Assembly: GCA_964249755.1 (NCBI GenBank)
Contig: CAXUDB010000002.1
Coordinates: 548,267 to 612,266, forward strand
Source of the DNA: an uncultured Ilyomonas sp.
GTDB taxonomy: Bacteria; Bacteroidota; Bacteroidia; Chitinophagales; Chitinophagaceae
Length of the DNA: 64,000 nt
Direction of reading: 5' to 3'
Part shown: positions 17,686-60,005 of the stretch, piece by piece
Layout of the letters: each line of letters starts with the position of its first letter
How positions within the stretch are numbered: the stretch's first letter is position 1
Notes under the pieces: model-generated
The model's database searches: none
Told to the model about the DNA's origin: nothing
The model's input: only the letters and a program-made list of their open reading frames with translations
Made by a program: the position numbers and the translations under genes

Positions 17686-18261
17686 TTATGGTTTATAGCA
17701 GTAAGACACAACTGAATCTTTTACCCATTTTACAATCACTGAATCGGAATAGAACTTTGCACATTCATAATAACCCGATGAGTCGGGCTGCTCCCAGCTA
17801 TGTGGCATACCGGAATCGCCATAGAACACATTGCGGGTACGACTGGTGATGGTTGGTTTTGTGAGATCGGAAATGTTGATCGAAATGAGATCGTAATAAT
17901 TGTTCGTGTAAAGTATATTTCCTTTGATAGAAATTTCTTCGCAGCCCGGCACTTCTATGAAACCAATGCGGTGCGCCGTTGATGGATTGGTATTGTCGGT
18001 GATGTGAATTCCCTTGCCAACTTCACATTGATAAATCAAGTTGTCTTTTACATAAATTTTGCCTGCGTTCACTACAGGTCTTGCGTCATCATAAGCGATA
18101 GTACGGTACGAGGTATCCAAAGCATACACCGGTTTCCAGGCCCATCTTTTGGGTTCTGTGTATTCGGTGTAGGGTTTATTAAAGAAGCCCCAGCAGGACG
18201 ATAAGCTGCAAACGAAGAAGATAAGTAATGCAGTCAACAGGGAGTGTAAAAGATGTTTCAT
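17686..18261 (-). CDS. Hypothetical lipoprotein with LVIVD-like repeats
   Basis: Lipobox 'SSC', 'AGKIYVKDNLIY..E.GKGIHI.DN.NP'. Confidence 0.7.
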   Translation of the reverse strand: MKHLLHSLLTALLIFFVCSLSSCWGFFNKPYTEYTEPKRWAWKPVYALDTSYRTIAYDDARPVVNAGKIYVKDNLIYQCEVGKGIHITDNTNPSTAHRIGFIEVPGCEEISIKGNILYTNNYYDLISINISDLTKPTITSRTRNVFYGDSGMPHSWEQPDSSGYYECAKFYSDSVIVKWVKDSVVSYCYKP

Positions 18262-34252: not shown

Positions 34253-34329
34253 TGTTATGTACGATGTTAGATATGAGAGGTGAAACGTGAGATGTGAGAG
34301 GTACGATGTTAGATGTCGGATGTACGATG
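34253..34329 (+). repeat. Heptamer tandem array (11 units, TRMGATG-like)
   Basis: tgttatg tacgatg ttagata tgagagg tgaaacg tgagatg tgagagg tacgatg ttagatg tcggatg tacgatg. Confidence 0.85.
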
Positions 34330-34353
34330 TAATTAGAAAGCAACGCTGCGTTC

Positions 34354-34585
34354 GTCATTCCGCAATTGCCCCGGCAATGTTATTCATAAATCGGTCTTGC
34401 GGGGGCTTTGTGCGGAATCTGCTCTTTATAATTTAATCCAGTTGCATTTCAAAGCACCCTTTTATCATAGAAACAGGCTTGCAACACAATCATCACATTC
34501 CGCACAAAGCCCTCGCAGTCACCATGAAGGTGCAACTTCTTGTTGAGGGCACCCCGACGCGTCGGGACAAGATTTGCGGAATGAC
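34354..34585. repeat. Nested-palindrome element, copy 2
   Basis: Perfect 12-bp terminal IR gtcattccgcaa/ttgcggaatgac; same internal IR as 26368-26578. Confidence 0.85.
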
Positions 34586-54293: not shown

Positions 54294-57131
54294 TTATTCT
54301 TTCTTTGCGTTCCGGTTAACTTGCTTTGTTACTAAGAAATGATATTTACCCGAGCCAACAGTGACGATCCTGCTATTTCTCTCAACTACTAAAATGGTTA
54401 TGTCTTTTGTGTTTTCGAGCAACTTTCCGCTTTCTTCTATTTTGTCATCGGGTCCAGCTGGAATAGTAATTCCAGCCGTTGTATTTGCTGGTATCTCCAC
54501 ATCCATTGTCACTGTATGTTGTAGCGTATCCCGCGTCCAGGTATTGCTTAGTTTGCCATAATAGGTTTGCAGGCTTGCCGAAGCCATGGTGAAGCTATCG
54601 CTGATGTGTGGTTGCACCTTGATGTGCTTGTAGCCTACGCCATCTTCATAGGTGTCTAAACCCACCATTACCCGGTACATCCAGTCGCCAATGGCACCGT
54701 AAGAATAATGGTTGTAAGAGTTCATGGAAGGGGTTTCAAAGGTGCCATCCGGTTTAATGCCATCCCAACGTTCCCATATGGTAGTCGCACCCATTTTCAC
54801 CGGGTAAATCCACGAAGGGTAAGAGGGTTGCAACAACAGTTTATAAGCAATACTATCATATCCAAACCGGGATAAGACACCGCACAAATAAGGCGTTCCC
54901 AGAAAGCCGGTGGTTAAGTGATTGTCGTAGCTTTCTACATTCTGTGCCAGCCGCTGCGCAGCCCCGGCACGTAAAGACTCCGGCAAGAGATCAAATTGCA
55001 AAGCCAGCACGTAAGCTGTTTGCGTTCCCGATACTAAGCGACCGTTGGGTGTGAGATATTCGCGGGCAAAAGCAGCTTTAATATTTTGTAATAACGATGA
55101 ATAAGTTGCCTCATCTTCTTTGTTGCCCAACACTTGTGCGGCATTAATCACTAATTGGGTTGAATGCGCATAAAAGCATTGTGCAATTAGGTATTTATCG
55201 GTAACGGCAGCCCTGCCGTCATTGTCATCATCCGGGCGATAAAACAGCCAGTCGCCAAAATGAAAACCGGTCTGCCATAAATTGTTTTTGCTGTTAGCAG
55301 TCATGTAATCTACCCACGCTTTCATGCTGGGGTATTGGTCGCCCAAGATTTGTTTATCACCATAGGCTAAATACATATTCCACGGAATGATAGTGGCAAC
55401 ATCTGCCCAGCCGGTTGAGCCACTGGAACCATCACCCAGCACGTTGGGAATAACAAACGGAACGCTTCCATTGTGCTGGTCAGTCGCCACATCTTTCAGC
55501 CATTTGGCAAAAAAGGCGTTTACGTTCATATTAAAGGAAGCAGTGCGCGAAAACACCTGTGCATCGCCCGTCCAGCCCAAACGTTCATCCCGTTGCGGGC
55601 AGTCGGTAGGCACATCTAAAAAGTTTCCTTTTTGTCCCCATTGAATATTATGCTGAAGCTGGTTAATGAGTACGTTGTTAGTAGAAAAACTTCCCGTTGG
55701 TGCCATGTCAGAATACAAAGTAACCGCCGTAAAGTTGTCTGGTTTCAGTTCACCCTTATAGCCTGTTACCTTCACATACCGGAAGCCATGCCAAGTAAAA
55801 TGCGGCTCGAAGGTTTCTGCCTCGCCACCTCGCAGAATAAAATTGTCTTGGGCTTTTGCTTCGCGAAGATTTGCCGTGTAAAAATTACCTTCTTTATCCA
55901 GCACTTCTGCATGAGACAGCGTGATGGTATCGCCGCTGTTGCCGCCCGCTTTCATCACTACCCAGCCCACCAAATTCTGCCCGAAATCAAGAACCTTTTC
56001 GCCTTTAGGTGTCGTGATGATTTTAATCACTTTAAAAGTCTCATGCTTTCGTACCGGTTCGTTCACGGTGGTAATGAGGTTATCATAAGAATAATCAGGA
56101 GTTGATACACCGCTCCAGCCCTTATCATCATAACCAGCCATCATCCAGCCCTTTTTCTCCAAACGGTCGTCTATCGTTTCGCCGTTGTATATCTCTGTGT
56201 AGCGGATGGCGCCGGTGGAAGATTTCCAAGTATTGTCGGTTGCCACAACCTGTGTAGTACCGTCTGTGTACGTAATGTTGATTTGCGCCAGCAAAGAGAT
56301 GTCTTTGCCATATACATTGATGTTATTGCCAAAGCCAATAATACCCCGGTACCAACCATTGCCCAGCGTAACACCAATGGCATTGTTGCCTGTCTTTATC
56401 TTATCTGTAACGTCGTATGTTTGATACTGCAGCCGTTTGTTGTAAGAAGTCCAGCCAGGAGTAAGATAAGCATCGCCCACGCGTTCACCATTAATATTCG
56501 CTTCATACAAGCCATGAGCTGTAACATACAATACAGCCGATGCGACTTTTTTACCGGTTGCAAATTCTTTTCTAAAAAGAGGGCTGGGGCGGTTGATCGA
56601 ATCTTCTGTATAACCCGGCGAAATCCACATCGCTTTGCCTTCCTTATCGAGGTCTAACAAAGCCGTCATAAAAAAAGCCGGCTCGCTCCAGGCAGATGCG
56701 CCGCCTTTATTATCCCAAACCCGCACCTTCCAGTTATAGCGCGTGCCGCTTTGAAATGCCGGACCTTTATAGGTTACACGCACCGACGAATCGCTCCCTA
56801 TTTTACCACTGTTCCAGACTGTTTTTTTATTCAGGCTATTAGTGACTTCTATCTCGTAAGCCGTTTGCATCGTGCCCCTTTTTGAACTGTTCAACTGCCA
56901 GCTAAAGCGAGGCATTCGCACATCAATACCAATTGGGTTTTTTCGGTTTTCGGTAAGCAGGTTAGAAACAGTTAGCTGCGCAAATAAACCGGCTGAAAAC
57001 AACTGAGCCGTAAGGAGCAAACCAATTTTAAAAACAACAAACGACTTACAAAATACCGTCTGTCGCTTAAGCCCGCTTTTGTTTTTGAATAACTGAATAA
57101 AGTAATCACCGGTTCGTTTTTGTTGTGTCAT
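54294..57131 (-). CDS. Alpha-L-rhamnosidase (GH78)
   Basis: 'LDFGQNLVG', 'FTWHGFRYV', 'PTDCPQRDERLGWTGD', 'GATTIWERW', 'SYNHYSYG'. Confidence 0.93.
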   Translation of the reverse strand: MTQQKRTGDYFIQLFKNKSGLKRQTVFCKSFVVFKIGLLLTAQLFSAGLFAQLTVSNLLTENRKNPIGIDVRMPRFSWQLNSSKRGTMQTAYEIEVTNSLNKKTVWNSGKIGSDSSVRVTYKGPAFQSGTRYNWKVRVWDNKGGASAWSEPAFFMTALLDLDKEGKAMWISPGYTEDSINRPSPLFRKEFATGKKVASAVLYVTAHGLYEANINGERVGDAYLTPGWTSYNKRLQYQTYDVTDKIKTGNNAIGVTLGNGWYRGIIGFGNNINVYGKDISLLAQINITYTDGTTQVVATDNTWKSSTGAIRYTEIYNGETIDDRLEKKGWMMAGYDDKGWSGVSTPDYSYDNLITTVNEPVRKHETFKVIKIITTPKGEKVLDFGQNLVGWVVMKAGGNSGDTITLSHAEVLDKEGNFYTANLREAKAQDNFILRGGEAETFEPHFTWHGFRYVKVTGYKGELKPDNFTAVTLYSDMAPTGSFSTNNVLINQLQHNIQWGQKGNFLDVPTDCPQRDERLGWTGDAQVFSRTASFNMNVNAFFAKWLKDVATDQHNGSVPFVIPNVLGDGSSGSTGWADVATIIPWNMYLAYGDKQILGDQYPSMKAWVDYMTANSKNNLWQTGFHFGDWLFYRPDDDNDGRAAVTDKYLIAQCFYAHSTQLVINAAQVLGNKEDEATYSSLLQNIKAAFAREYLTPNGRLVSGTQTAYVLALQFDLLPESLRAGAAQRLAQNVESYDNHLTTGFLGTPYLCGVLSRFGYDSIAYKLLLQPSYPSWIYPVKMGATTIWERWDGIKPDGTFETPSMNSYNHYSYGAIGDWMYRVMVGLDTYEDGVGYKHIKVQPHISDSFTMASASLQTYYGKLSNTWTRDTLQHTVTMDVEIPANTTAGITIPAGPDDKIEESGKLLENTKDITILVVERNSRIVTVGSGKYHFLVTKQVNRNAKKE

Positions 57132-57366
57132 AGCAAGTATTTATAAAAACTAAAGATTCACTTAATGTACTCTTGCTTCTTTAACAAAGAGGTATAAAAG
57201 CAGCCTGAGAAGGATAATTGTAAACTGAAGCAAAATAAACGATTTGGCTAACTTGTTTTGTCATCTATGGCAATGCCTGTCGGTTGTAAATATAAGCTGA
57301 TGATGGGTGTTTTCGTTTCAACTTTATTTTTAGTGAAATGATGTTTGCATGTTGTACAAGCCGTTT

Positions 57367-57374
57367 TATATTTG
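57367..57374 (+). promoter_or_regulatory. -7 element upstream of the tRNA-like units and tRNA-Thr
   Basis: TATATTTG followed by cgccc. Confidence 0.6.
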
Positions 57375-57384
57375 CGCCCTTATT

Positions 57385-57531
57385 GCCAAACTTAGCTCAA
57401 ACAGTAGAACTTTCCGATGTCTCGGGAGGGTTGTCTGGAGAGCAGAAGAAATTAACAGCTAACCTTAGCTCAGATGGTAAAACATCCCGACGTGTCGGTA
57501 GAGTTGTGAGGAGAAAGGGAAAAGATTAACT
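57385..57531 (+). pseudogene. Two tandem degenerate tRNA-Thr-like units (57385-57457, 57458-57531)
   Basis: 5' halves resemble tRNA-Thr (unit 2: 23/27 identities plus 1 gap); anticodon arm replaced by a ccga-N4-tcgg palindrome; no T arm. Confidence 0.7.
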
Positions 57532-57604
57532 GCCAACCTAGCTCAGCTGGTAGAGCATTTCATTCGTAATGAAAGGGTCGTCGGTTCGATTCCGATGGTT
57601 GGCT
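57532..57604 (+). tRNA. tRNA-Thr (CGT)
   Basis: Acceptor gccaacc/ggttggc, D arm gctc/gagc, anticodon tttca-ttCGTaa-tgaaa, T-loop gttcgat. Confidence 0.95.
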
Positions 57605-57618
57605 CATCATTGAAAGTT

Positions 57619-57643
57619 AAGCGGATGTTACATCCGCTTTTTT
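57619..57643 (+). terminator. Terminator after tRNA-Thr
   Basis: aagcggatgt-tacatccgctttttt. Confidence 0.82.
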
Positions 57644-57801
57644 ATTTTAACTCATTCTCATTTCATCAAAACAAATAGACATTTCTTCTGGTGTGAATAA
57701 ACTTTACTCATCCTGCACAAATCCAACACAATAAAAACAGCGCAGAAGAGTTGACATCTTTGTAACAAAAGTTCCTTGTTTCAGTCATTACTTTTATCAG
57801 C

Positions 57802-58689
57802 ATGAATATTTCCTACAACGAACAACAGTTTGAACGCAATAAAAATATAAAAGCATTGGCTATAACGATAGCTGTTTGCGTCGCTATGTTTTTATTAATG
57901 ATATTGGTGAGCTGGACGCCGCCGCAAACGCCGCTGCCTTTGGTTGATAACGGTATTGAAGTGAACCTGGGAAACAGCGATGCCGGCTTGGGTACTGTAG
58001 CTCCGCAAATACCCGGCGAGCCATCTAAAGCCGAAGAAACGGATGTTCAGCCTCCAAAAGCAATTGCATCACACGATGAACCGGAGGAAAGCAAAGAAGT
58101 GGCTGACAACGAGGAAAAGGAAACGCCCGTCATTCATACATCACCCAAACCCAAAGAACAGCCCAAACATGAAACCGTAATACCAAAGGCAAAGCCGAAA
58201 GAAAAAGAACAAGCAGTTGTAGCGCCACCGGCACCGCCCAAGCCAAAAGCCGTGTACAAAGGCGGAACGGCACAGAATAACTCTGGCGGCAATGGAGCCG
58301 ATAGCTATAATGGCGTGCGCAACCAAGGCATTGCCGGCGGCAAAGGCGACCAAGGCAAAGCCTATGGAAATCCTGCTTCTGACAGTTACACCGGTAACGG
58401 TGGCACGGGAAAAGGCGGCGTGAGTATTCGCAGCGGATTGAGCGGAAGAAAATTTACGCATTTGCCATCCTTTACCGACGACTTTAACGAAAATGCAAAA
58501 GTTGCCGTTGACATAACCGTAGATGCGGCTGGCAACGTAACCAATGCTACCCGCAACCCGCGTGGAACCACTACTACCAATAGTGGCATCATTGGAATCG
58601 CATTATCAAAGGCAAGACAACTAAAACTGAACAAAGGAACTGATGAACAAACCGGCACAATTGTATTCGATTTCAAGCTTCGTGGTTAG
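57802..58689 (+). CDS. TonB-like energy-transducer-family protein
   Basis: N-terminal TM helix, Pro/Glu/Lys-rich spacer, Gly-rich segment, TonB_C-like end 'KVAVDITVD..GNV..A...GTIVFDFKL'. Confidence 0.7.
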   Translation: MNISYNEQQFERNKNIKALAITIAVCVAMFLLMILVSWTPPQTPLPLVDNGIEVNLGNSDAGLGTVAPQIPGEPSKAEETDVQPPKAIASHDEPEESKEVADNEEKETPVIHTSPKPKEQPKHETVIPKAKPKEKEQAVVAPPAPPKPKAVYKGGTAQNNSGGNGADSYNGVRNQGIAGGKGDQGKAYGNPASDSYTGNGGTGKGGVSIRSGLSGRKFTHLPSFTDDFNENAKVAVDITVDAAGNVTNATRNPRGTTTTNSGIIGIALSKARQLKLNKGTDEQTGTIVFDFKLRG

Positions 58690-58715: not shown

Positions 58716-60005
58716 ATGAACTATCAGGAAACAATTGATTATCTCTATAAAAAACTTCCGCTTTTTAGTCGTCTTGGTGCAGCCGCCATTAAAGCCGATC
58801 TCACCAATACCATCACGCTTTGTGAAGCTTTAGACAATCCGCAAAAAAACTTTGCTGCCATACATGTAGCGGGCACTAATGGCAAGGGCTCTGTAAGCCA
58901 TATGCTGGCAGCCATCCTGCAAACGGCGGGTTACAAAACAGGTCTTTATACCTCGCCTCATCTGGTAGATTTCCGGGAAAGGATTAAGATAAACGGCGAG
59001 CTGTGCGAACCCCGGTTTGTAGTCGATTTTACAGATAAAATAAAGCCGTTGATTGAAGAGATAGAACCTTCATTTTTCGAAATAACGGTTGCTATGGCGT
59101 TCGATTATTTTAGTAAAGAGAAAGTAGATATCGCTATTATAGAAACGGGACTGGGCGGGCGTTTGGACAGTACAAATATCATCACGCCAATTCTCAGCAT
59201 CATTACCAATATCGGTCTTGACCATACACAGATTTTGGGTGAAACGCTTTCGCAAATCGCTTACGAGAAAGCAGGCATCATAAAGCCGGGCGTACCAGTG
59301 GTGATAGGCGAGGTATTGCCCGAAACCGAATCTGTATTTGTAAATACAGCCAGAGAAAAATCAGCGCCGCTAATGATAGCCCAGGAAAGTTATTATGTTT
59401 CGGAATTTGCGTATGAACACAATGCGCTTACGGTTACCATTGCCAATACAAAGACTGACGACAGGGAAACTTATCATTTAGATTTACCGGGTGTTTATCA
59501 AACCAAAAACATCATCACTGTTATAGATGCCGTTCGATACCTGCAATCTCTTGATTATACGATCTCAGCAGCTGGAATAAAAGAAGCCTTGCATAAAGTG
59601 AAAAAGCTAACAGGCTTGCATGGCAGATGGGAACTGCTTCGTCATAAACCAGCGGTGATAGCTGATGTGGCACACAATGCTGATGGCATGAAAGCGTTGG
59701 CTGAACAGATTGAATTGACTACCTACCATACACTTCATATCATCATTGGGATGGTGAAAGATAAAGATGTTTTTGGTGCTTTGGCTTATCTGCCAAAGAC
59801 AGCTAACTATTATTTTACCCAGCCACAAACACCTCGAGCCTTGCCTGCAGATCAAATGGCTGAAATCGGCGCCGGTATTGGCTTGCATGGCAGAACATTC
59901 GACCACGTGAATGAAGCATTGCAGCACGTAATTACGCACGCACACGAAGATGATCTTGTGCTAATTTGCGGAAGTGTGTTTTTGGTAGGAGAGGTAATGG
60001 CGTAA
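58716..60005 (+). CDS. folC: Folylpolyglutamate synthase/dihydrofolate synthase
   Basis: 'HVAGTNGKGS', 'YTSPHL', 'ETGLGGRLDSTN', 'DVAHN', 'CGSVFLVG'. Confidence 0.95.
   Translation: MNYQETIDYLYKKLPLFSRLGAAAIKADLTNTITLCEALDNPQKNFAAIHVAGTNGKGSVSHMLAAILQTAGYKTGLYTSPHLVDFRERIKINGELCEPRFVVDFTDKIKPLIEEIEPSFFEITVAMAFDYFSKEKVDIAIIETGLGGRLDSTNIITPILSIITNIGLDHTQILGETLSQIAYEKAGIIKPGVPVVIGEVLPETESVFVNTAREKSAPLMIAQESYYVSEFAYEHNALTVTIANTKTDDRETYHLDLPGVYQTKNIITVIDAVRYLQSLDYTISAAGIKEALHKVKKLTGLHGRWELLRHKPAVIADVAHNADGMKALAEQIELTTYHTLHIIIGMVKDKDVFGALAYLPKTANYYFTQPQTPRALPADQMAEIGAGIGLHGRTFDHVNEALQHVITHAHEDDLVLICGSVFLVGEVMA

What the first reader, a model, noticed from the sequence alone, without database searches (positions are those of the whole stretch)
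57385..57604. tRNA-Thr preceded by two tandem tRNA-like half copies carrying a palindrome in place of the anticodon arm
Seen: units of 73 and 74 nt, homologous along their length (gcYaaMcttagctca..gtaRaac..ccga-N4-tcgg..gttgt..ggaga..attaac), sit between a TAnnTTTG promoter and the intact tRNA-Thr(CGT). They keep the acceptor 5' strand and D-loop sequence, though D-stem pairing is damaged. The anticodon arm is replaced by a 4-nt-loop hairpin, and the T arm and 3' acceptor strand are absent. Inference: repeated duplication of the tRNA 5' half linked to the CCCGA/TCGGG element. This may be a scar of an element that targets tRNA anticodon loops, or a co-transcribed tRNA-mimic leader that could yield small RNAs.
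Basis: partly seen in the sequence, partly recalled or inferred. Interest (0 to 1): 0.72.

Follow-up and report, generated by a model that had tools for sequence, protein, structure and literature searches.

The report
Tandem dead tRNA-Thr copies with palindrome
Two broken, tRNA-length copies of a threonine tRNA gene sit head to tail between its promoter and the working gene. The same short palindrome replaces the anticodon arm here and in similar repeats beside other tRNA genes in distant bacteria, so this looks like a recurring, undescribed kind of tRNA-derived repeat rather than a one-off scar.

Summary
Units of 73 nt (57385-57457) and 74 nt (57458-57531) lie flush between the only good Bacteroidota-type promoter (TTTG 57344-47, TATATTTG 57367-74) and an intact tRNA-Thr(CGT) at 57532-57605, which is followed by a terminator. 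The units are not halves. They have the full tRNA length, align to the tRNA through position 53, and unit 2 ends in a G-to-A-decayed acceptor 3' strand. ARAGORN and Rfam do not call them.

Copy number at this locus varies among Ilyomonas-group relatives: 0 in 9-10 loci, 1 in two, and 2 here and in one strain seen in raw data. That strain's extra unit carries the same palindrome (CCCGAC-NN-GTCGGG). So do tandem units upstream of a tRNA-Lys(TTT) on an IMG/VR contig beside a small GIY-YIG nuclease gene, and two variants of exactly 73 nt in peat metagenomes.

Best reading (about 0.5): these are inert pseudo-tRNA repeats made and resized by recombination at the tRNA gene, possibly triggered by a nuclease. 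They would be transcribed as a ~150-nt leader and cut off by RNase P. The conserved palindrome is unexplained and leaves room for a mobile or functional element. No expression data exist.

The parts
57344..57347 (+). -33 element TTTG of a Bacteroidota-type promoter
   Evidence: Lies 19 nt upstream of the -7 box. The sigma-70-style scan also flags 57344-57372.
57367..57374 (+). -7 element TATATTTG (TAnnTTTG). The start of transcription is inferred at about 57379-57382.
   Evidence: Only perfect TAnnTTTG in 57250-57610. It ends 10 nt before unit 1. In relatives without units the -7 box and the tRNA have this same spacing, so unit 1 occupies the tRNA's usual slot.
57385..57457 (+). Unit 1 (73 nt): degenerate copy of the tRNA-Thr gene. 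It keeps the acceptor 5' strand, a damaged D arm, a substituted anticodon arm, the variable loop and the T-stem 5' strand. It ends in a purine-rich tail, ATTAACA.
   Evidence: Not called tRNA.
57413..57427 (+). Unit 1 palindrome/hairpin TCCGA-TGTC-TCGGG(A) at the anticodon-arm position
   Evidence: Member of the CCCGAC-NN-GTCGGG core family.
57458..57531 (+). Unit 2 (74 nt): second degenerate copy. Positions 7-22 are identical to the tRNA of sister genomes. Its last 8 nt look like a G>A-decayed acceptor 3' strand.
57486..57498 (+). Unit 2 palindrome CCCGAC-GT-GTCGG
   Evidence: Its arms are identical to those of X51 unit B and of the L165 units.
57532..57605 (+). Intact tRNA-Thr(CGT). CCA is not encoded.
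   Evidence: ARAGORN. Rfam 66.6 bits. Cloverleaf fold.
57619..57649 (+). Intrinsic terminator: 9-bp stem AAGCGGATG/CATCCGCTT followed by a T run

Best explanation
The two units are dead, tRNA-length tandem copies of the tRNA-Thr(CGU) gene (pseudo-tRNA repeats).

**What is shown**
- They lie head to tail, without spacer, between the promoter and the live gene.
- They keep the acceptor 5' strand, most of the D arm, the variable loop and the T-stem 5' strand.
- They have lost the T loop, the T-stem 3' strand and a pairing acceptor 3' strand, so they cannot fold into a tRNA.
- Their anticodon arm is replaced by a GC-rich palindrome, (C)CCGAC-NN-GTCGG(G).
- Copy number differs between related genomes (0, 1 or 2).
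- The same palindrome-bearing unit type occurs beside other tRNA genes in distant organisms.

**What is inferred**
- Transcription starts at about 57380 from the single good promoter and runs to the terminator at 57619-57649. This gives a precursor of about 270 nt.
- RNase P cuts at 57531/57532 and releases a leader of about 150 nt that consists of the two units. The leader has no role in decoding.
- The array arose, and grows or shrinks, by recombination at the tRNA gene: unequal crossing-over or gene conversion between unit and tRNA 5' parts, and possibly repair of breaks made in the T-loop-coding DNA by tRNA-gene-cutting nucleases of the GIY-YIG kind.
- Copies that lack the T loop and a normal anticodon arm are inert. 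They persist until a recombination event between the repeats deletes them.

Why the same palindrome recurs is not explained by this model alone.
For: **Anatomy**
- Homology to the tRNA through position 53, with exact 73/74-nt phasing.
- Unit 2's last 8 nt match the acceptor 3' strand with G>A changes.
- No tRNA call by ARAGORN or Rfam.
- Unit 1 sits 10 nt after the -7 box, exactly where the tRNA sits in relatives without units. No perfect promoter lies inside the units.

**Turnover among relatives**
- Of 12 Ilyomonas-group loci with the whole region upstream of this tRNA in hand, 9 have no unit (L001, L002, L004, L045, L046, L048, L050, L051, L133). L005 has one unit of 46 nt, L006 one of 54 nt, and the window two.
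- Units occur in three separate clades of the neighbour-gene tree. L005's sister L004 (94% aa identity) has none.
- An L005-like strain in run X51 has an extra 68-nt unit between the 46-nt unit and the tRNA. A 41-nt exact repeat frames it, which is the signature of unequal recombination.
- Runs X1 and X3 hold the identical tRNA allele with the promoter abutting it.

**Family**
- X51 unit B, L165 units and peat variants share GAGCAT-CCCGAC-YY-GTCGGG-AGGGTCG (13/14 identity in the palindrome). In L165 and peat variant (e) the 5' part is that of the tRNA-Lys(TTT) that follows; peat variant (f) has a different tRNA-like 5' part that recurs after it. Two peat variants are exactly 73 nt.

**Nuclease link**
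- In L165 the array is followed by a small GIY-YIG gene (Pfam 3e-18). Its stop codon lies inside another palindrome-bearing tRNA-like 3' part.
- SegB, a GIY-YIG enzyme, cuts inside tRNA genes at RAWTSGAAC and drives segmental amplification of a tRNA region (PMC13096335; PMC2330249).
- That motif is present in the live tRNA's T loop (57584-57592, minus strand) and absent from the units, whose homology to the tRNA ends just there.
Against: - There is no expression data. No public run holds the locus, and poly(A) RNA runs of the host of L006 gave no reads.
- No nuclease, integrase or transposase gene lies near the units in the window or in the Ilyomonas loci.
- RAWTSGAAC is a common motif: 5 hits in the window against 5.7 expected.
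- The palindrome arms are identical (11/11) between unit 2 and X51 unit B, although the tRNA-like 5' parts of these two units are only about 67% alike. The arms also recur next to a different tRNA in another phylum. Neutral decay does not predict this, so selection or horizontal spread of the core is likely. That points towards a mobile element or a function.
- The zero-spacer, exactly tRNA-length period in independent arrays is not explained.
- The extra unit variants come from low-depth Logan contigs (2-9x) that I reconstructed from alignment pieces.
Confidence: 0.5

Rival explanations
1. Functional RNA module. The units form a structured 5' leader, an anticodon-less tRNA mimic with a conserved GC hairpin and purine-rich single strands. 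It would act on the RNA level. It might control folding or RNase P processing of tRNA-Thr(CGU), for instance when a pseudo 5' acceptor strand competes for the tRNA's 3' strand. Alternatively it might bind a protein or give rise to a small RNA.
For: - The hairpin arms are conserved while the loops vary: TGTC, CGTG, CTCG, CTTG.
- The 5' acceptor strands of all four Ilyomonas-group units can still pair with the tRNA's 3' strand. The changes are C>T, which gives G-U pairs (read).
- In the ensemble fold of the precursor, unit 1's 5' strand takes the tRNA's 3' strand with p about 0.86 if the transcript starts at 57380 or later.
- The promoter lies upstream of the units.
Against: - The competition prediction flips (own acceptor stem p 0.93) if the start is 2 nt further upstream. 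It is absent in L005 and L006.
- Folding z-scores are unremarkable: -2.2, -0.4 and -1.1.
- No compensatory change supports the hairpin. In unit 2 the extended stem of unit 1 is broken.
- Most close relatives lack units entirely, and L005 and L006 keep only stumps without the palindrome.
- There is no Rfam match and no RNA data.
Confidence: 0.2
2. One-off local tandem duplication followed by ordinary neutral decay. The resemblance of the palindrome to the units in L165 and the peat contigs would be coincidence: a GC-rich stem arising from an inverted repeat that was already there.
For: - Tandem, in phase and adjacent to the parent gene.
- The stem change from TTTCA/TGAAA to TCCCG/CGGGA needs only six transitions that keep pairing.
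- The tails are not significantly alike between lineages.
- 0 hits for a duplicated tRNA 5' part in 241 million metagenome records.
Against: - The strict pattern GTAGAGCNNCCCGANNNNTCGGGAGG found a single IMG/VR contig, and there it lies in a tandem array upstream of a tRNA that shares the unit's 5' part.
- A looser pattern gave only that contig and one random coding hit.
- X51 unit B, from a different Ilyomonas clade, has the same arms.
- In L165 the flanks are 26/26 identical to the tRNA while the whole arm differs. That is a block difference, not gradual decay.
Confidence: 0.15
3. Operator array. The palindrome, with 6-bp half-sites and a 2-bp spacer repeated every 73 bp (about 7 helical turns), would be a DNA site for a dimeric protein, either a regulator or a nuclease. 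Binding downstream of the promoter would control or mark the tRNA gene.
For: - The form of the site, CCCGAC-NN-GTCGGG. Its arms are conserved while the centre varies.
- CCCGANNNNTCGGG occurs twice more in the window, at 17774 and 34553, against about 0.1 expected from my own estimate.
Against: - No candidate protein is encoded nearby.
- Unit 1's half-sites are degenerate.
- One of the two extra sites lies inside a gene.
- Most relatives do without any site.
Confidence: 0.08
4. Integration scars. The units would be att-site remnants left by integrative elements that recombine in the anticodon stem-loop of this tRNA gene.
For: - This tRNA is an integration and rearrangement hot spot in relatives. 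L047 keeps only a 3' fragment that starts in the anticodon loop.
- L001 and L046 have inserts between the tRNA and the next gene, and in L003 the tRNA is replaced by a transposase-like region.
- L004 and L045 carry a tRNA allele with three compensatory changes in the anticodon stem.
Against: - Such events duplicate the part carried by the element, normally the 3' part, and leave it kilobases away across the element (PMC9897764).
- Here the 5' parts are repeated, flush, with tRNA-length period and no element DNA.
- No integrase lies in the window near the locus.
- The units have no match in the phage or plasmid collections.
Confidence: 0.07

Closest known systems
SegB-type (GIY-YIG) homing-endonuclease-driven segmental amplification of tRNA gene regions in T-even phages (PMC13096335; PMC2330249)
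   Same: Tandem repeats that involve a tRNA gene. The copy number is unstable. The nuclease cuts inside tRNA genes at a T-loop-like motif, which is also where homology between unit and tRNA ends. In the related array L165 a GIY-YIG gene sits next to the tRNA.
   Different: SegB amplifies kilobase-scale segments that hold a full-length working tRNA and part of segB. Here the repeats are tRNA-length and dead, carry a substituted anticodon arm, lie in a bacterial chromosome, and have no nuclease gene nearby. The L165 protein is an 85-aa catalytic domain only, and its activity is untested.
tRNA pseudogenes from tandem duplication and random loss (animal mitochondrial genomes, e.g. PMC4860592, PMC4223735)
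   Same: Head-to-tail duplication of a tRNA gene, followed by decay of the redundant copies next to a surviving one.
   Different: Different genetic system. Those pseudogenes have no shared substituted arm across unrelated tRNAs and taxa.
Partial tRNA genes left by integrative elements (PMC9897764)
   Same: Non-canonical tRNA gene fragments close to an intact copy. Relative L047 shows this classical type at the same tRNA.
   Different: Those are single direct repeats, usually of the 3' part, at the far end of an element of 9-23 kb. Here there are flush tandem copies that keep the 5' part, with no element.
E. coli tyrT locus: 178-bp tandem repeats that each contain the last 19 nt of tRNA-Tyr
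   Same: Tandem repeats that carry a piece of the adjacent tRNA gene, are co-transcribed with it and arose by unequal recombination.
   Different: Those lie downstream, carry the 3' end only, and have a period of 178 bp.
Regulatory RNAs cut from tRNA precursor spacers, such as 3'ETS-leuZ (own knowledge)
   Same: A co-transcribed non-tRNA part of a tRNA precursor could have a role of its own.
   Different: That is a unique spacer, not tRNA-derived repeats. No RNA evidence exists here.

Membership tests
Canonical tRNA gene | Cloverleaf with acceptor stem, D, anticodon and T arms; detected by ARAGORN or the Rfam RF00005 model | tested here: not met
   The units are not called by ARAGORN or by Rfam even at E<=10. 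57532-57605 meets the test (66.6 bits).
Tandem-duplication tRNA pseudogene | Head-to-tail copy adjacent to the parent gene, homologous along its length, with loss of features needed for function | tested here: met
   Spacing 73, 73 and 72-75% identity. The unit profile hits tRNA-Thr genes over positions 5-53. The tail end matches the acceptor 3' strand. The T arm is lost.
Tandem-duplication tRNA pseudogene | Copy number varies between related genomes, as expected of unstable tandem repeats | tested here: met
   0, 1 or 2 units in 13 loci or strains.
tRNA fragment at the end of an integrated element (att repeat) | Fragment separated from the intact tRNA by an element of kilobases that encodes an integrase | tested here: not met
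   The units are flush with the tRNA. The neighbours are a GH78 rhamnosidase, a TonB-like protein and FolC.
Homing-endonuclease (SegB-like) segmental amplification | Endonuclease gene next to the amplified segment | tested here: not met
   tblastn with six GIY-YIG proteins finds nothing in the window or in the Ilyomonas loci. The feature is met only in the related array L165.
Homing-endonuclease (SegB-like) segmental amplification | Cleavage motif in the tRNA gene at the repeat junction | tested here: inconclusive
   RAWTSGAAC lies at 57584-57592 (minus strand) in the T loop, where unit homology ends. The motif is as frequent in the window as chance predicts.
Homing-endonuclease (SegB-like) segmental amplification | Nuclease-dependent formation of the repeats | not testable with these tools
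   Needs an enzyme assay or a genetic test.
Any described RNA family (Rfam 15) | Match to a curated covariance model | tested here: not met
   No match over the units in the window or in L165.

The most novel reading that the evidence does not exclude
The units belong to a family of ~73-nt tRNA-derived repeats that spreads horizontally. Its conserved core is GAGCAT-CCCGAC-NN-GTCGGG-AGGGTCG. Members install themselves in tandem upstream of tRNA genes with compatible D and T arms (Thr, Lys and others) in Bacteroidota, Ignavibacteria-like organisms and their mobile DNA. Two readings fit. In one they are a selfish mini-element mobilised by nucleases that cut tRNA genes, to which the altered copy is immune. 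In the other they are a selected anticodon-less tRNA-mimic leader module.
Probability: 0.3. Interest if true: 0.8.

Novelty: new variant of a known kind. Interest (0 to 1): 0.5.

Why it matters
If these are only decaying duplicates, the locus is a tidy bacterial example of how tRNA genes duplicate and erode, and of why gene finders should not call such pieces.

The recurrence of one specific palindrome is hard to get by chance. It sits in place of the anticodon arm, in units of exactly tRNA length, upstream of different tRNAs in distant taxa, and once beside a GIY-YIG nuclease gene. That pattern suggests an undescribed process acting on tRNA genes: a nuclease-and-repair cycle, a tiny mobile repeat, or a leader module that tunes a rare tRNA. 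Any of these would add to the current picture of tRNA genes as battlegrounds between mobile elements, phages and defence systems. Each could be tested with simple experiments.

Tried and rejected
**No data or no hits**
- RNA evidence: no public run holds the window locus. Poly(A) RNA runs linked to L006 gave zero reads.
- Exact-protein look-up of the window's neighbour gene: not on record.
- Metagenome scan for CTTAGCTNA-N30-60-GCCAACYTAGCTCAG: 0 hits. The same pattern in viral contigs: 0 hits.
- The second metagenome scan, with the TonB-like protein, returned only distant genera without the tRNA.
- Units against the phage and plasmid collections: no match. The 32-nt core gave only chance hits.
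- A search with peptides translated from the core to catch spurious ORFs: nothing.

**Chance or non-significant results**
- Short palindrome pattern in viral contigs: 16 chance hits without tRNA context.
- Tail similarity between lineages is not significant, so I dropped the idea that the tails are homologous.
- The tail as a copy of the promoter and leader: no similarity in the window (read). In L165, however, the 40-nt tail is repeated before every unit and before the tRNA, which fits it being the tRNA's upstream region.

**Ideas considered and rejected**
- Retro-copy of mature tRNA: rejected, because there is no CCA between units.
- Integron attC site, CsrA-type sponge and split tRNA: considered from memory and rejected on sequence.
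- The 63-aa ORF over the units (57338-57529) starts upstream of the promoter and has no Pfam match.
- Long-range complementarity of unit 2 to the start of the TonB-like gene (I8/I9): the two segments are not colinear for a duplex, so I take it as chance.

Full report
**1. What is in the window**

The sequence shows, on the + strand:
- a Bacteroidota-type promoter, TTTG at 57344-57347 and TATATTTG at 57367-57374 with a 19-nt spacer. It is the only perfect TAnnTTTG in 57250-57610;
- unit 1 at 57385-57457 (73 nt) and unit 2 at 57458-57531 (74 nt);
- tRNA-Thr(CGT) at 57532-57605 (ARAGORN; Rfam 66.6 bits);
- a terminator at 57619-57639 followed by a T run.

The neighbours are a GH78 rhamnosidase on the minus strand (54294-57131), a 295-aa TonB-like protein (57802-58689) and FolC (58716-60005). 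The repeat is real. The repeat finder gives 57 nt at 75% identity with spacing 73, and a three-copy family with spacing 73, 73. A D-arm pattern hits only these three places, against 0.2 expected. The units are not called tRNA by ARAGORN or by Rfam, even at E<=10.

**2. Anatomy of a unit**

Aligned to the tRNA, a unit has these parts:
- The acceptor 5' strand is kept (GCCAAAC in unit 1, GCTAACC in unit 2).
- The D arm is kept, with 3/4 and 2/4 stem pairs.
- The arm at the anticodon position is only 1 nt shorter than the real one. It has a different, GC-rich stem and a short loop: TCCGA-TGTC-TCGGG in unit 1 and CCCGA-CGTG-TCGG in unit 2.
- The variable loop and T-stem 5' strand are kept (AGGGTTGTCTGG against AGGGTCGTCGG).
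- A purine-rich stretch follows, and the unit ends in ATTAAC(A/T).

The last 8 nt of unit 2 (GATTAACT) match the tRNA's last 8 (GGTTGGCT) at five positions, and the other three differences are G>A (p about 0.004). The unit length equals the tRNA length. The units are therefore best read as full-length copies without spacer, not as halves.

A profile of the two units hits the tRNA-Thr genes of relatives over positions 5-53. The best hit is the sister genome L001, not the window's own tRNA. Unit 2 positions 7-22 are identical to the L001-type tRNA. The 5' 26 nt are better kept than the next 28: 22/26 against 15/29 for unit 2.

**3. The same locus in relatives**

The TonB-like protein places the window in the Ilyomonas group of Chitinophagaceae, at 73-85% aa identity. 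I read 12 related loci that have this tRNA upstream of the gene.
- **No unit:** nine loci (L001, L002, L004, L045, L046, L048, L050, L051, L133). In these the -7 box ends about 10 nt before the tRNA. That is the spacing seen between the -7 box and unit 1 in the window.
- **One unit:** L005 has a 46-nt unit and L006 a 54-nt unit. L006's unit still has a tRNA-like arm with a 7-nt loop.
- **Distribution:** on a neighbour-gene tree the carriers fall in three clades. L005's sister L004 (94% aa identity) has none.
- **Identical tRNA allele, no units:** runs X1 and X3 hold the tRNA allele of the window with the promoter directly in front.

The locus is also rearranged in other ways. L047 keeps only a 3' fragment of the tRNA that starts in the anticodon loop. 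L001 and L046 have inserts after the tRNA, and L003 has lost it.

**4. The palindrome recurs**

Contigs of public runs were laid on L005. One run (X51) showed a strain with an extra unit between the 46-nt unit and the tRNA:

GTCAGCTTAGTTCAGCTAGTAGAGCAT-CCCGACTCGTCGGG-AGGGTCGCTGATC-GTTAAGTGATAATA

It is framed by a 41-nt exact repeat. Its arm has the same arms as unit 2 of the window, which belongs to a different clade.

A scan of IMG/VR with GTAGAGCNNCCCGANNNNTCGGGAGG found a single contig, L165. There the motif lies in three or more tandem units upstream of a tRNA-Lys(TTT). Each unit has four parts:
- the first 26 nt of that tRNA, copied exactly;
- CCCGA-CTTG-TCGGG, or the same arms around a 23-nt insert;
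- AGGGTCGAGTGGTTCG;
- a 40-nt AT-rich tail.

A looser pattern found only L165 and one chance hit inside a gene.

Peat-metagenome runs laid on L165 gave two more variants, both exactly 73 nt long. One precedes the tRNA-Lys 5' end with a 15-nt tail. The other has a different tRNA-like 5' part. The central core is nearly invariant across these variants, while the 5' part follows the neighbouring tRNA and the tails differ.

In L165 the tRNA is followed by a terminator and an 85-aa GIY-YIG protein (Pfam 3e-18). Its stop codon lies inside another palindrome-bearing tRNA-like 3' part, and a partial repeat of terminator and ORF follows. The closest named homologue of this protein comes from an Ignavibacteriaceae MAG. 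No such gene is found in the window or in the Ilyomonas loci.

**5. How it most likely works**

*Shown:*
- The units cannot be tRNAs.
- They are tandem derivatives of the tRNA gene.
- Their number changes between relatives.
- The unit type recurs elsewhere.

*Inferred:*
- The single promoter drives a precursor of about 270 nt. RNase P removes a leader of about 150 nt made of the two units.
- Arrays expand and contract by unequal recombination between the similar 5' parts. The 41-nt repeat in X51 is the footprint.
- Copies without a T loop and a normal anticodon arm are inert.

*More speculative:* breaks made by nucleases that cut tRNA genes may start the duplications. SegB, a GIY-YIG enzyme, cuts tRNA genes at RAWTSGAAC and drives segmental amplification of a tRNA region (PMC13096335). 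That motif sits in the T loop of the live tRNA (57584-57592, minus strand), exactly where unit homology stops. It is a common motif, however.

*Unexplained:* this model does not account for why the same palindrome, and a period of exactly tRNA length, recur next to different tRNAs. That keeps a mobile-repeat or functional reading alive.

**6. Tests of a function**

- Folding gives weak z-scores.
- A predicted competition of unit 1's 5' strand for the tRNA's 3' acceptor strand depends on the exact start of transcription. It is absent in L005 and L006.
- There is no compensatory change in the hairpin.
- There is no Rfam family.
- No RNA data could be had.

**7. Comparison with what is known, and verdict**

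The units pass the test for tandem-duplication tRNA pseudogenes. They fail those for tRNA, for integration att fragments (PMC9897764) and, in this window, for endonuclease-adjacent amplification. I found no description of palindrome-substituted, tRNA-length repeats upstream of tRNA genes.

I rate the finding a new variant of a known kind, with interest 0.5. The evidence for the wider family rests on one IMG/VR contig and a few low-depth contigs, so a systematic scan is the obvious next step.

Noticed in passing
L047:769-812: A relative keeps only the 3' part of tRNA-Thr(CGT), starting inside the anticodon loop (TTCGT...), directly upstream of the TonB-like gene. This looks like the far-end repeat of an element integrated at this tRNA.
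   Followed up: partly
L004:2791-2864 and L045:2072-2145: These two relatives carry a tRNA-Thr(CGT) allele whose anticodon stem differs by three compensatory pair changes (ACGCA/TGCGT instead of TTTCA/TGAAA). L005, 93-94% identical in the neighbouring protein, has the common stem but their T arm. The gene appears to be a recombination mosaic.
   Followed up: no
window:57750-57767 (also 57723-57737): GTTGACATCTTTGTAACA lies 35-50 nt upstream of the TonB-like gene. It is invariant in the window and 13 related loci and differs at 1-3 positions in 5 more, although the surrounding intergenic DNA is not conserved. It is probably a promoter or regulator site.
   Followed up: partly
window:34213-35000: Repeat-rich non-coding stretch. 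It holds 21-nt tandem repeats at 34259-34330, a palindrome CCCGACGCGTCGGG at 34553-34566 with the same arms as the units, and inverted repeats GTCATTCCGCAA (34346) / TTGCGGAATGAC (34575).
   Followed up: no
window:36203-36352: Tandem array with a period of 21/42 nt and about 7 copies (TTAATAATAGCCAAAACATCA), found by Tandem Repeats Finder.
   Followed up: no
L165:403-1000: After the tRNA-Lys come a terminator and an 85-aa GIY-YIG gene. A tRNA-like 3' part follows, with inserts in the anticodon arm and the T loop, and then a second partial copy of terminator and ORF start. This looks like nested insertions of a nuclease cassette that carries a tRNA 3' part into the D loop of a tRNA-like target. 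One upstream unit has a 21-nt palindromic insert at the same D-loop position.
   Followed up: partly
L006:2437-2540: About 100 nt upstream of the L006 unit attract many unrelated contigs at 85-90% identity in lichen-associated runs, as if a conserved or repeated element lay there. ARAGORN and Rfam find nothing.
   Followed up: partly
L003:2400-3000; L001:1190-3000; L046:1648-2500: The stretch between this tRNA and the TonB-like gene is variable. L003 has a transposase-like ORF and no tRNA. L001 has an M1-peptidase gene inserted. L046 has an unknown 207-aa ORF inserted.
   Followed up: partly
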